Source of the DNA: Fimbriimonadales bacterium
GTDB taxonomy: Bacteria > Armatimonadota > Fimbriimonadia > Fimbriimonadales > JABRVX01
Direction of reading: 5' to 3'
Length of the DNA: 31,363 nt
NCBI GenBank assembly: GCA_045862955.1
Contig: BTVI01000036.1
Location: 1 to 31,363, forward strand
Below the pieces are notes generated by a model. The model did no database searches. It saw only the letters and a program-made list of their open reading frames with translations, and was not told the origin of the DNA. Position numbers and translations under genes: made by a program. Below, piece after piece: positions 1-31,294 of this stretch (within the stretch, counting starts at the first letter, position 1; each line of letters opens with the position of its first letter).

Positions 1-161
1 AGCAGATGGACACCGTAGCGCTGGGTGAAGCCCTCGACGGCATCGGTGCGGTGCTCCCACACCCTCCGGACGATGTCGGAGGTGACACCGATGTAGAGAG
101 TGCCGTTTCGTCGGCTTGCCATGATGTAGACGGCGGGCTGCCTGCGCATGGACGGCGCCAT
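1..161 (-). CDS. GIY-YIG nuclease family protein (small UPF0213-like), 5' part only; runs off the window edge
   Basis: Manual translation of the minus strand gives MAPSMRRQPAVYIMASRRNGTLYIGVTSDIVRRVWEHRTDAVEGFTQRYGVHL..., with the VYI..LYIG-T...RR..EH signature. GGAGG lies just upstream of ATG 161; an alternative ATG is at 149. Not in the ORF track. Confidence 0.92.
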   Translation of the reverse strand, partial: MAPSMRRQPAVYIMASRRNGTLYIGVTSDIVRRVWEHRTDAVEGFTQRYGVHL

Positions 162-199
162 TGTTCCTCCGAGTGTCTGCTGGATGCCGGGTGGGTGGG

Positions 200-346
200 A
201 TTCTGGATTCCCGCCTTCGCGGGAATGACAATGGCCTTCGCGGGAATGACAAAAGGGGTGCAGACGGTGTCTGGTCATTGTCATTCCCGCGAAGGCGGGA
301 ATCCAGAATGCCGCGGTTGTCATTCCCACGAAGGCGGGAATCCAGA
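200..346. repeat. Cluster of 4 TGTC-tagged REP-like palindromes (TGTCATTCCCGCGAAGGCGGGAATCCAG)
   Basis: 200-233 and 276-309 are a perfect 34-bp inverted repeat. A partial copy is at 234-252 and a one-mismatch copy at 317-346. Each full unit is an ATTCCC-N8-GGGAAT hairpin. Confidence 0.95.
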
Positions 347-1606
347 GCCCTGGGGGGCGGGGAGCTGTAGGGCCGTGGGTAGGTCGGAGAGGGGGACCTC
401 GGCCTGAGACTGCGTGCGGAGGTCTTTCAGCGTCACAGCTCCGCGCGACCACTCGTCCTCGCCGAGCACCACGGCGAAGCGCGCGCCGGAGCGATCTGCC
501 TGGCGGAATTGGCTCTTCGCGCTGCGGCTCTCCAGGTCGAGCTCGGCGGCGATACCCGCTCGGCGTAGCTGGGTCGCGAGCTTCAGTGCGCGCGGCCCCA
601 TGTCGGTGCCGATGGCCACCACGAAGGCGATCGGCGCCTCCTCTGCCCCAAGCGCCTCCTCGTCGAGCAGCATCAGTGCACGCTCGATGCCCATCGCCAC
701 CCCCACCGCAGGTGTCGGCGGGCCACCACACAGTTCTACCAACCCATCGTAACGGCCGCCCCCGCACACGCTGTTCTGCGCTCCCAGACTACCGCTTACC
801 ACCTCGAACACCGTCCGGTTATAGTAGTCCAGCCCGCGCACGAGCCGAGGCTCCAGCACGAAGCTCACCCCGAGGTCATGCAGCAGCGCCTGCAGACGCA
901 CGAAGTGTTCCCTGCTCTCCGGCTCCAGGTAATCGAGGATGCTCGGCGCGCCGGCCATCGCCTCTATGCACTCGGGGTCCTTGCTGTCCAGCAGTCGTAG
1001 CGGGTTGTTGCGCATGCGCTCGGCGGCATCCTCGGGCAGTGAGGCGATGTAAGACGCGGCATACGCAAGGAGCGCCTCGCGATATCGGCGGCGACACTCT
1101 GCATCGCCCAGCGAGTTGAGCCGAAGCTCGAGGTCCTTCAGCCCCAGCGCCTCGTAGAACGCCATCGTGAGTTGTATCACCTCGGCATCGGCGCTGGGTG
1201 ATGCTGCGCCGAACACTTCCAGCCCCACCTGGTGCGCTTGGCGCAAGCGCCCGGCTTGGGGCCTCTCATAGCGGAAGATCGGCGTGATGTAGAACAACTT
1301 GGTCACCGCACCCTGCCCGCCTAGGTGGTGCTCCACGTAGGCACGCGCAGCCGGCGCGGTGCCCTCTGGCTTCAGTGTGATGCTGCGGCCGCCCTTGTCC
1401 AGAAAGGTGTACATCTCCTTCGACACGATGTCCGTGCCCTCGCCCACGCCGCGAACGAACAGCTCGGTGTGCTCGAACACCGGCGTGCGGATTTCGCCAT
1501 AGCCGTAAAGGCTGCATAGTCGGCGAAACGTATCCTCCACGAAGCGCCAGCGGCGTGCTTCGTCGGGAAGGACGTCTTTCGTGCCTCGGGGTGCGGAGAT
1601 GTCCAT
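320..1606 (-). CDS. hisS: Histidine--tRNA ligase
   Basis: PRGTKD N-terminus, EIRTPVFEHTELF, KEMYTF, LKPEGTA, FRYERPQAGR, LVRGLDYY, GGGRYDGL and a C-terminal anticodon-binding domain. Confidence 0.98.
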   Translation of the reverse strand: MDISAPRGTKDVLPDEARRWRFVEDTFRRLCSLYGYGEIRTPVFEHTELFVRGVGEGTDIVSKEMYTFLDKGGRSITLKPEGTAPAARAYVEHHLGGQGAVTKLFYITPIFRYERPQAGRLRQAHQVGLEVFGAASPSADAEVIQLTMAFYEALGLKDLELRLNSLGDAECRRRYREALLAYAASYIASLPEDAAERMRNNPLRLLDSKDPECIEAMAGAPSILDYLEPESREHFVRLQALLHDLGVSFVLEPRLVRGLDYYNRTVFEVVSGSLGAQNSVCGGGRYDGLVELCGGPPTPAVGVAMGIERALMLLDEEALGAEEAPIAFVVAIGTDMGPRALKLATQLRRAGIAAELDLESRSAKSQFRQADRSGARFAVVLGEDEWSRGAVTLKDLRTQSQAEVPLSDLPTALQLPAPQGSGFPPSWE

Positions 1607-3391: not shown

Positions 3392-4151
3392 TGGTGTGCG
3401 TCAGGCCGGTGCAATCCGTCGGACGTGGGCCGGGGGATGGAGTAACACCCCTACCCGTCATGCTGAGCCTGTCGAAGCATGCAGACGCAAGCCGCAAGCG
3501 TTGCATCGGATACCGCCATCATGCCGACGGCGAGGGCGCGGGTGTCCCGACTCTCCCCCCGCGGTCCTTGGGTCAGCGGTGTGCGACGGGCCGGTGCAAT
3601 CCGGCGGGCGCGGGCCGGGGCATGGAGCGTCTAGGCAGGCAACGTTGGGTGCCTCGACGTTCGGCTGCTCGGGGAGTTGCTGGGCGAGGGCTTGGCGGCA
3701 GAGGGCAGCCGAAACGTCTAGGCATGGAACCTCCGCGCTTCTCTGCGTCCTTTGCGTGACAGTCCCTGCCGGTAGCCTCGGGCCGGGGCATGGAGTAACA
3801 CCCCTACCCGTCATGCTGAGCCTGTCGAAGCATGCGAACGCAAGCCGCAAGCGTTGCATCGGATGCCGCCATCATGCCGACGGCGAGGGCACGGCTGTCC
3901 CGACTCTCGCCCCGGCGCGGTCCTCGGGTTAGCGGCATGCGGCAGGCCGGCGCAATCCGGCGGACGCGGGCCGGGGCATGGAACGTCTAGGCAGGCAGCG
4001 TTGGGTGCCTTGACGTTCGGCTGCTCGGGGAGTTGCTGGGCGAGGGCTTGGCGGCAGACGACAGCCGAAACGTCTAGGCATGGAACCTCCGCGCTTCTCT
4101 GCGTCCTTTGCGTGACAGTCCCCGCCGGCGGACGCGGGCCGGCGCATGGAG
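3392..4151. repeat. Composite repeat array: about two tandem copies of a ~355-bp unit (3427-3779, 3780-4135) built from four repeat modules
   Basis: Direct alignment of the two units. A GGGCCGGGGCATGGA-like motif recurs at 3427, 3612, 3780, 3968 and 4136, and CGTCATGCTGAGCCTGTCGAAGCATG at ~3456 and ~3809. Confidence 0.93.
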
Positions 4152-4195
4152 ACGTGGGTGCTCTGTCCAAAGACACCAGGAGGTCCTGAGAGGCG

Positions 4196-9573: not shown

Positions 9574-9723
9574 CTCCATGCCCCGGCCCGAGGCTACCGG
9601 CAGGGACTGTCACGCCAAGGGAGCAGAGACGCGCGGAGATCATCTCCATGCCCTGGCGCGGTCCTTAGGTTGGCTTCAGACGCCCCGTGCTGCCGAGCGG
9701 CGGACGCGGGCCATGGCATAGAA
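9574..9723. repeat. Dispersed copy of the same repeat modules (inverted module C plus hairpin module A)
   Basis: 9574-9638 is a near-identical reverse complement of 3731-3795; 9644-9723 reads CTCCATGCCCTGGCGCGGTCC...GGACGCGGGCCATGGCATAGAA. Confidence 0.9.
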
Positions 9724-9893
9724 ACTTTGTGCGGCTGCCGTACGGTATGAGTCGGAACCACCGTGTCGGTGCAGTCATGGACTATCTGGGCAAGCTTGAA
9801 GGCGGAAATCCAGGAGGCGAAGGTGAAGCGGCGGTGAACACAGTGCCAGATGGCAGCAGCCGTGCGCGCCAGGTAAACTGGCCGGTAACCGGA

Positions 9894-30919: not shown

Positions 30920-31294
30920 GGTAGTCCGTGGTTCCGTCACGCTGAGCCCGTCACAGCGACGGCCTGCGCCAGTTTCCTGGCAGACGCACCCTGATGCTGT
31001 CCAGGTTTCATGCCTCGGCGTTTCGGCTGCCGGTGTCGGGAGCCTTCCGACCACCGCCGACCCCTGCAGCCGAACGGCGAGGCTCCCAGACGCCCCGGCG
31101 CGGTCCCTGGCTCTGCGGCACCCGATCCGGGAAGCAGTAGCCGACGGGACGCGGGCCGGGGCATGGAACGTGGTAGTAAGTTGTTCCGTCACGCTGAGCC
31201 TGTCGAAGCGTGCGCTCAATCGCCGCGAGCGTTGTGGCAAGAGACGGTAGGGGTACGGCAGGCGAGGGCACGCTTCGACAGGCTCAGCGTGACG
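30920..31294. repeat. Third mosaic repeat locus: partial CGTC REP, inverted module B, module A and an inverted CGTC REP doublet
   Basis: 31187-31213 and 31268-31294 are a perfect 27-bp inverted repeat; 30920-30952 resembles 31172-31204; module B at ~31009-31083; module A at ~31092-31169. Confidence 0.92.

What the first reader, a model, noticed from the sequence alone, without database searches (positions are those of the whole stretch)
1..346. GIY-YIG nuclease gene headed by TGTC-tagged REP palindromes: candidate REP-nuclease unit
Seen: a small GIY-YIG gene, absent from the ORF track, begins ~40 bp from four TGTCATTCCCGCGAAGGCGGGAATCCAG palindromes arranged as inverted doublets. Known: GTAG-tagged REPs flank their cognate HUH transposase gene (RAYT/TnpA-REP). 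To my knowledge no dedicated enzyme is established for CGTC/TGTC-tagged REPs, and the ATTCCC-N8-GGGAAT core matches Neisseria dRS3. Inference: this layout mirrors a REPtron with GIY-YIG in place of RAYT, so the nuclease may be the cognate enzyme that nicks or spreads these repeats.
Basis: partly seen in the sequence, partly recalled or inferred. Interest (0 to 1): 0.85.

Follow-up and report, generated by a model that had tools for sequence, protein, structure and literature searches.

The report
Ssn nuclease gene amid hairpin repeats
A tiny nuclease gene sits between arrays of short DNA hairpin repeats on both sides; it matches the Ssn nuclease/hairpin-repeat system published in 2025, so the protein likely cuts single-stranded DNA next to these repeats, and this is a new example of a known pairing rather than a new system.

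Summary
Window 1-161 (minus strand) is the start of a 97-101 aa GIY-YIG gene cut by the contig end; 41 bp upstream lie three full TGTC-tagged hairpins and one half copy, not four full ones. The rest of the gene is on contig C91, followed by seven more copies. Public contigs bridge the join, and a sister species has hisS-repeats-gene-repeats-sepF on one contig. The link is general: 65 of 80 homologues have a tagged hairpin within 300 bp. But it is published: the repeat is the NTS/SRM motif and the protein is Ssn-type (62% identical to the Neisseria gonorrhoeae homologue, catalytic Y/Y/E in register; Chenal et al. 2025), enzymes shown to cut single-stranded DNA beside this hairpin. The scan reported this pairing before on other DNA. 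A side result: the same genome holds a second, more UPF0213-like GIY-YIG gene boxed by a different hairpin family (787 copies), and the two repeat types sort with the two protein groups (72 vs 0 and 0 vs 48 of 80).

The parts
1..161 (-). 5' part of a small single-domain GIY-YIG (Ssn-type) nuclease gene; ATG at 161 (or 149); runs off the contig end and is completed on contig C91 1-234 (97 codons from ATG 149, no internal stop)
   Evidence: Pfam PF01541; 89-nt terminal overlap with C91; single public contigs of 456-497 nt cover both parts in 4 of 4 runs laid; 92% aa-identical full gene in G001
165..170 (-). Likely ribosome-binding site GGAGGA, 3 nt before ATG 161
   Evidence: sequence; conserved in G001; function inferred
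203..230 (-). Full TGTC-tagged hairpin repeat (NTS/SRM, CGTC-1/dRS3 type), pointing towards the gene
   Evidence: matches published SRM exactly and NTS with 1 mismatch; 8-bp stem, 4-nt loop
234..251 (-). Half repeat: tag, left arm and loop only
   Evidence: sequence; no hairpin; same half copy in G001
252..278 (.). Spacer of the head-to-head repeat pair; identical to the spacer in the downstream array on C91, different in G001
279..306 (+). Full hairpin repeat, pointing away from the gene (head-to-head partner)
   Evidence: SRM exact, NTS 1 mismatch
318..345 (+). Repeat copy with one stem mismatch; contains the hisS stop codon (320-322)
   Evidence: hisS runs into this copy also in public contigs of runs X1 and X2
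320..1606 (-). hisS (histidyl-tRNA synthetase), upstream neighbour on the same strand; not part of the element
   Evidence: Pfam PF13393, PF03129

Best explanation
This is a gene for a small Ssn-type GIY-YIG nuclease flanked on both sides by arrays of its cognate NTS/SRM hairpin repeat, and the protein likely binds that hairpin in single-stranded DNA and cuts a few bases upstream of its GTC tag, as shown for four other family members. Shown here: the gene, the two-sided layout, the motif match and the family placement. Inferred: the cassette reached this genus once, by horizontal transfer, and now stays single-copy between hisS and sepF; cuts in transiently single-stranded DNA (replication, repair, incoming DNA), repaired by host recombination between repeat copies, would drive the local expansion and turnover of the arrays and seed the roughly 30 copies elsewhere in the genome. 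Unlike HUH RAYTs, GIY-YIG enzymes are hydrolytic with no known strand-joining step (established knowledge, recalled), so any spreading would need host repair.
For: Two-sided layout. Protein: the G001 copy is 62% identical over 92 ungapped residues to a 94-aa N. gonorrhoeae protein that is itself surrounded by NTS copies; Y8, Y19, E66 align with the Y6, Y17, E64 whose mutation abolishes cutting in SsnA; both fall in one 80-row clade, SH-aLRT 92 (quick tree). Motif: published SRM matches 2 window and 5 C91 copies; NTS (1 mismatch) has 18 copies in the genome. Enrichment in 80 homologues from GTDB genomes: generic tagged hairpin within 300 bp in 65, both sides in 39, versus 17 of 397 distal windows and 22 of 1490 shuffles; about 6 per kb within 150 bp versus 0.1-0.3 beyond 1 kb; nearest copies point inwards in 31 of the 39; published SRM within 500 bp in 42 of 80 versus 3 of 132 distal windows. 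Co-occurrence in kin: this repeat is found in 2 of 41 related genomes, the same two that carry the close homologue. The genome's HUH/Y1 genes carry none of these repeats. Purifying selection: 12 synonymous vs 7 non-synonymous codon differences from G001. Array turnover: copy number and spacers differ between G000 and G001 while the gene stays in place.
Against: No activity was measured for this protein. The cd10448 profile that defines the family could not be run, and the N. meningitidis SsnA sequence itself was not obtained; the N. gonorrhoeae protein is taken as its orthologue by length, residue numbering and NTS flanks. 15 of 80 homologues show no hairpin with the generic detector. The kin co-occurrence is one evolutionary event. 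No clean empty site exists for this locus: hisS and sepF are not neighbours in the four other relatives examined. At 11 syntenic repeat sites of G001, G000 holds a recognisable copy in 3 and other repeat families or relics in 8, with no precise insertion junction. The tree is a quick one on 102 columns with many open forks.
Confidence: 0.8

Rival explanations
1. REPtron-like selfish unit: the nuclease itself mobilises the repeat-gene-repeat cassette and creates new repeat copies, so it is the missing dedicated enzyme of CGTC-tagged REPs.
For: Inward-pointing repeats bound the gene in 31 of 39 two-sided homologues. The cassette is patchy at orthologous sites: present in 1 of 22 syntenic loci in the genus of L053 and 3 of 21 in the genus of L034, filling the whole intergenic gap in L053. 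Four of five genomes tested hold several matches. The window's protein nests among proteobacterial sequences (14-row clade, SH-aLRT 96). Repeat type sorts with protein group.
Against: One copy of this clade in G000 and in G001, at the same site. No target duplication or precise junction seen; the empty sites are often filled by unrelated hairpin families, so they look like general hotspots. Patchiness can be loss or host-mediated transfer. Only cutting, not joining or transposition, is reported in PMC11893778 (parts 1-6 read). The cassette is no more conserved between G000 and G001 than the adjacent sepF.
Confidence: 0.3
2. Domesticated gatekeeper: the enzyme mainly restricts incoming single-stranded DNA that carries the repeat, as in N. 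meningitidis, and the repeats spread by other means.
For: In N. meningitidis, loss of ssnA raises transformation with NTS-bearing DNA about 5-fold (PMC11893778). G000 has ComEC and DprA family genes. The gene is stable, single-copy and under purifying selection.
Against: ComEC and DprA are near-universal (10 and 11 of 14 control genomes), so they do not show competence. Only about 33 copies exist in 3.4 Mb, 19 of them in two clusters, too few to screen most incoming DNA.
Confidence: 0.2
3. Passive pile-up: repeats spread by some other enzyme accumulate in a tolerant intergenic region and the nuclease has nothing to do with them.
For: This genome's intergenic regions are crowded with several repeat families (787 copies of one, about 250 of another), and one array of 10 copies (C71) has no nuclease gene in the assembly beside it.
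Against: Repeat density falls 20- to 60-fold within 1 kb of the gene across many phyla; the abundant second family is absent from this gene's flanks and sits around a different nuclease; direct biochemical specificity is published for the family.
Confidence: 0.04

Closest known systems
Ssn nucleases with NTS/SRM repeats (SsnA = NMV_0044/NMB0047 of Neisseria meningitidis; CDD cd10448; Chenal et al., Nat Commun 2025, PMC11893778)
   Same: Single-domain GIY-YIG of about 95 aa, catalytic Y/Y/E in register, 62% identity to the N. gonorrhoeae homologue, repeat matching the published NTS (1 mismatch) and SRM, repeat-gene-repeat layout.
   Different: A different host lineage (holders are sludge and bioreactor metagenomes); only about 33 repeat copies instead of hundreds; TGTC rather than CGTC tag at this locus; one copy supplies the hisS stop codon; activity untested.
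CGTC-tagged REPs, family CGTC-1, including Neisseria dRS3 (Di Nocera et al. 2013, PMC3733652)
   Same: CGTC/TGTC tag, 8-bp stem starting AT, 4-nt loop, CCA tail, head-to-head dimers and clusters.
   Different: That paper found no dedicated transposase beside them; here, as in the Ssn paper, they flank a GIY-YIG gene. The Ssn main text has no occurrence of 'CGTC-tagged', 'Di Nocera', 'RAYT' or 'REPtron', so the two literatures are not explicitly joined there.
REPtrons: RAYT / TnpA-REP (HUH, IS200/IS605-related) genes flanked by GTAG REPs
   Same: Single-copy enzyme gene boxed by its cognate hairpins, repeats dispersed in the genome, recognition of hairpins in single-stranded DNA.
   Different: Enzyme is GIY-YIG, not HUH/Y1; tag is (C/T)GTC, not GTAG; no strand-transfer chemistry is known for GIY-YIG (recalled). 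The genome's own Y1 genes carry unrelated repeats.
UPF0213 / YhbQ small GIY-YIG nucleases (PDB 1zg2, 1ywl; E. coli YhbQ)
   Same: Same fold family and size.
   Different: Only weak similarity (E 0.011; 23% to YhbQ over the window's part); YhbQ lies on a long branch outside the clade.

Membership tests
Ssn nuclease / SRM system | Small single-domain GIY-YIG protein (under 150 aa) | tested here: met
   97 codons from ATG 149, no internal stop; full G001 copy has only PF01541, 56.7 bits
Ssn nuclease / SRM system | BLAST match to Neisseria SsnA, E below 1e-10 over at least 75% of its length (strict: at least 60% identity) | tested here: met
   62% identity, 98% cover, E 5e-39 at a proteome-sized database, using the N. 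gonorrhoeae homologue (L115) as stand-in and the G001 full-length protein; G000 halves 70% and 57%
Ssn nuclease / SRM system | Catalytic residues Y6, Y17, E64 of SsnA | tested here: met
   Y8, Y19 (window part) and E66 (C91 part) align without gaps; residue numbers from PMC11893778 Fig. 3 legend
Ssn nuclease / SRM system | SRM/NTS repeat within 500 bp on both sides of the gene | tested here: met
   published SRM pattern: 2 upstream (window), 5 downstream (C91); 3 in the contiguous G001 locus
Ssn nuclease / SRM system | Falls in the SsnA clade of the GIY-YIG tree | tested here: met
   80-row clade with the N. gonorrhoeae protein, SH-aLRT 92, quick tree of 167 rows; support is moderate
Ssn nuclease / SRM system | Best CDD hit cd10448 (GIY-YIG_unchar_3) | not testable with these tools
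   CDD is not among the libraries; NCBIfam gives no model over its cut-off
Ssn nuclease / SRM system | Sequence- and orientation-specific cleavage of single-stranded DNA only | not testable with these tools
   needs purified protein
CGTC-1 REP family | CGTC/TGTC tag, 8-bp stem opening with AT, 4-nt loop, CCA tail, head-to-head dimers | tested here: met
   against the text of section 6 of PMC3733652; the consensus figure itself was not seen
REPtron (RAYT) | HUH/Y1 tyrosine transposase gene | tested here: not met
   protein is GIY-YIG; the three PF01797 matches lie on other contigs
REPtron (RAYT) | GTAG-tagged flanking REPs | tested here: not met
   tag is TGTC
Autonomous mobile element | Several near-identical copies or a precise empty site for this locus | tested here: inconclusive
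   one copy per assembly in G000 and G001; hisS-sepF synteny lost in 4 of 4 other relatives examined; homologous cassettes patchy at two other sites without precise junctions

The most novel reading that the evidence does not exclude
Small GIY-YIG nucleases are the missing engines of the whole CGTC-tagged REP superfamily: separate nuclease clades each cut and propagate their own hairpin type, and this genome runs two such pairs side by side, the Ssn-type pair in the window and a UPF0213-leaning nuclease (contig C31) boxed by a different hairpin that has reached 787 copies and is not captured by the published SRM pattern.
Probability: 0.3. Interest if true: 0.62.

Novelty: new member of a known kind. 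Interest (0 to 1): 0.2.

Why it matters
As found, it adds one more Ssn nuclease/hairpin pair, in a lineage where the pair is confined to one genus among the 41 genomes searched. That is a tidy natural case but no surprise after the 2025 paper. It matters a little more for two reasons. It ties the Ssn motif to the CGTC-tagged REPs that were said in 2013 to lack an enzyme. And the genome offers two nuclease/repeat pairs of different type, which makes a clean cross-specificity test and a test of whether these nucleases amplify their repeats.

Tried and rejected
Literature: 'GIY-YIG' + 'repetitive extragenic palindromic' gave 0 papers; with REPIN only false matches; two searches gave REP/RAYT or unrelated papers; 'GIY-YIG' + 'dRS3' found the Ssn paper, the only hit also; 'UPF0213' + 'GIY-YIG' + 'hairpin' gave 0. 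These searches cover open-licence papers and bioRxiv only. One search used the SRM with its two N(0-2) gaps collapsed; it missed the real repeats and is discarded (redone with a specific pattern and the full SRM). The full SRM is loose: 57 genome hits versus 30 on the reversed genome, so it was not used as a copy count. Recent transfer of the cassette between G000 and G001: four-fold sites differ less than in hisS (7/42 vs 88/212) but like sepF (15/66), so rejected. Contig depth over the gene is about 2-4 times that of the flanks in four runs, but this is not a copy number and no second copy is in the assembly. No RNA holder was listed. Empty site at hisS: not testable, synteny is lost. A RAYT as the repeat's enzyme: none of 3 Y1 loci carries the repeat. 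NCBIfam gave nothing useful; no solved Ssn structure by sequence; no structure prediction was run. The SsnA sequence was not found in 12 of 14 supplementary files searched. The type-A and type-B patterns were written after seeing the flanks, so those counts are descriptive; the generic detector was also written after seeing the set-1 flanks, and only the published SRM is independent of them.

Full report
Observation. The window is the whole of contig C36 of its genome. On the minus strand, bases 161/149 to 1 encode the start of a GIY-YIG protein (PF01541, 31.1 bits, cut-off 22.6). Upstream lie exact copies of a 28-nt TGTC-tagged hairpin at 203-230 (minus) and 279-306 (plus), a copy with one stem mismatch at 318-345 (plus), and a half copy at 234-251 (minus) that cannot fold. 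The region folds far better than shuffles (z -11.4, 0 of 200). hisS (320-1606, minus) ends inside the outermost copy.

The missing flank. Contig C91 begins with 89 nt that are the reverse complement of window 1-89, completes the reading frame, and after 92 nt carries six reverse copies and one forward copy of the repeat, then sepF. In 4 of 4 public runs laid, one contig of 456-497 nt covers both parts; in runs X1 and X2 it differs from the C91 part at 12 places, so alleles exist. The sister species G001 has hisS, repeats, a 92%-identical gene, repeats and sepF on one contig. The innermost repeats point towards the gene from both sides. Array length and spacers differ between the two species while the gene stays put, with 12 synonymous and 7 non-synonymous codon differences.

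Generality. A generic tag-plus-hairpin detector finds a copy within 300 bp in 65 of 80 (upstream 54, downstream 50, both 39), against 17 of 397 distal windows and 22 of 1490 shuffled flanks; density is about 6 per kb within 150 bp and 0.1-0.3 per kb beyond 1 kb; 31 of the 39 two-sided loci have inward-pointing nearest copies. The published SRM pattern, which is independent of my inspection, gives 42 of 80 within 500 bp (22 both sides) against 3 of 132 distal windows. Among 41 related genomes the repeat is found only in G000 (33 copies) and G001 (30), with 0 for the reversed control; these two carry the close homologue, while other relatives hold 35-53% identical GIY-YIG genes with other hairpins or none. 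This is a single evolutionary event. The three HUH/Y1 loci of the genome carry none of these repeats.

What it is. PMC3733652 (read: abstract, section 6, passages; figures not seen) defines CGTC/TGTC-tagged REPs, equates CGTC-1 with Neisseria dRS3 and says they lack a dedicated transposase. PMC11893778 (read: parts 1-6 of 11 of the main text, i.e. abstract to mid-methods, one supplementary table, and a term search of 12 of 14 supplements; figures not seen) defines the NTS, which contains dRS3, and the wider SRM. It finds them beside 71% of ssnA homologues (42% on both sides), shows that SsnA and three homologues cut only single-stranded DNA a few bases upstream of the hairpin in an orientation-dependent way, shows an effect on transformation in N. 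meningitidis, and proposes that NTS-ssnA-NTS is a domesticated mobile element akin to REP-associated transposases. The window's two exact repeats match the SRM and differ from the NTS at one base. The G001 protein is 62% identical without gaps to a 94-aa N. gonorrhoeae protein surrounded by NTS copies, which I take as the SsnA orthologue; the three residues needed for cutting align, and both lie in one clade (SH-aLRT 92; quick tree of 167 rows, 102 columns; rows under 75 aa, with X or stops, and L102 were left out). The cd10448 profile could not be run. I found the paper both through my own search and through earlier notes of the scan, which had reached the same verdict on other DNA.

How it most likely works. 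Shown: layout, motif, family. Inferred from the family: hairpin binding and 5' cutting in single-stranded DNA. Inferred further: the cassette entered the genus once (the protein nests among proteobacterial sequences), and cuts repaired by host recombination reshape the arrays and seed distant copies. Evidence on self-mobility is mixed. Homologous cassettes are patchy at orthologous sites: 1 of 22 syntenic loci among 30 fetched in the genus of L053, and 3 of 21 among 30 in the genus of L034. But no precise junction or target duplication was seen, empty sites often hold unrelated hairpins, the gene is single-copy in both assemblies, and hisS-sepF synteny is lost in the other four relatives examined. 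Of 17 G001 repeat sites fetched, 11 were syntenic on one G000 contig; 3 kept a recognisable copy and 8 held other repeats or relics.

Side result. G000 has a second small GIY-YIG gene, cut at the start of C31, complete in G001 (L109) and boxed on both sides by a different CGTC-tagged hairpin with 787 copies in G000, 196 in G001 and 13 in G002; four copies lie in this window. It is 42% identical to the Neisseria protein, closer to UPF0213 structures (E 5e-10 versus 0.011 for the window's protein), and falls outside the 80-row clade, although it would still pass the paper's BLAST threshold (E 4e-12 at a proteome-sized database). The SRM does not match its flanks. Among 80 metagenomic relatives, 48 have this second hairpin type (27 on both sides; 2 of 180 distal windows) and 0 have the window's type; among the 80 relatives of the window's protein, 72 have the window's type and 0 the strict second type (patterns written after viewing the flanks). 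One paper search for it found nothing, which is a weak negative.

Verdict. Real, well supported, and a new member of a system published in 2025. Interest 0.2. The open and more interesting question, whether these nucleases propagate their repeats, is not answered by this locus.

Noticed in passing
G000:C31 1-131 (L002); full copy G001:C45 (L109 1447-1743); repeats in window at 3457-3477, 3810-3830, 31188-31208, 31273-31293: A second small GIY-YIG gene, more UPF0213-like, boxed by a different CGTC-tagged hairpin with 787 copies in this genome; the pairing recurs in 48 of 80 metagenomic relatives and is not matched by the published SRM pattern.
   Followed up: partly
window 318-362: hisS ends inside a repeat copy and is 428 aa against 414 aa in G001: the repeat supplies the last codons and the stop.
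   Followed up: partly
window 234-345 and G000:C91 477-604: The upstream and downstream arrays share an identical dimer spacer and a 39-bp tandem period, inverted about the gene; in G001 the spacers differ. Either recent homogenisation or an assembly artefact.
   Followed up: partly
window 3393-4160, 9574-9730, 31003-31171; G000:C14 44079, C71 8304, C30 37139, C4 3653; window about 9796: A third repeat family (about 250 copies, core GGACGCGGGCCGGGGCAT) builds long composite elements, and several of them start right at the loop of a broken TGTC-type hairpin.
   Followed up: no
L016 (G000:C8 23887-24222) and L017 (G000:C12 51638-51985): Two RAYT-like Y1/HUH genes are each surrounded by their own unrelated palindromic repeat arrays: likely REPtron- or TIRtron-like units.
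   Followed up: no
G000:C20 50153-50789 and C71 8602-9172: Tandem arrays of the window's repeat with a 61-bp period and variable spacers (11 and 10 units); they could be mistaken for CRISPR arrays.
   Followed up: no
L105, L107, L108; L169, L183, L189, L200: Another small GIY-YIG group lies directly beside tRNA-like sequences (recognised by eye), mostly without tagged hairpins.
   Followed up: no
L115 (NZ_CP119140.1): A 2.17-Mb N. gonorrhoeae record is filed as a plasmid in PLSDB but is chromosome-sized.
   Followed up: no
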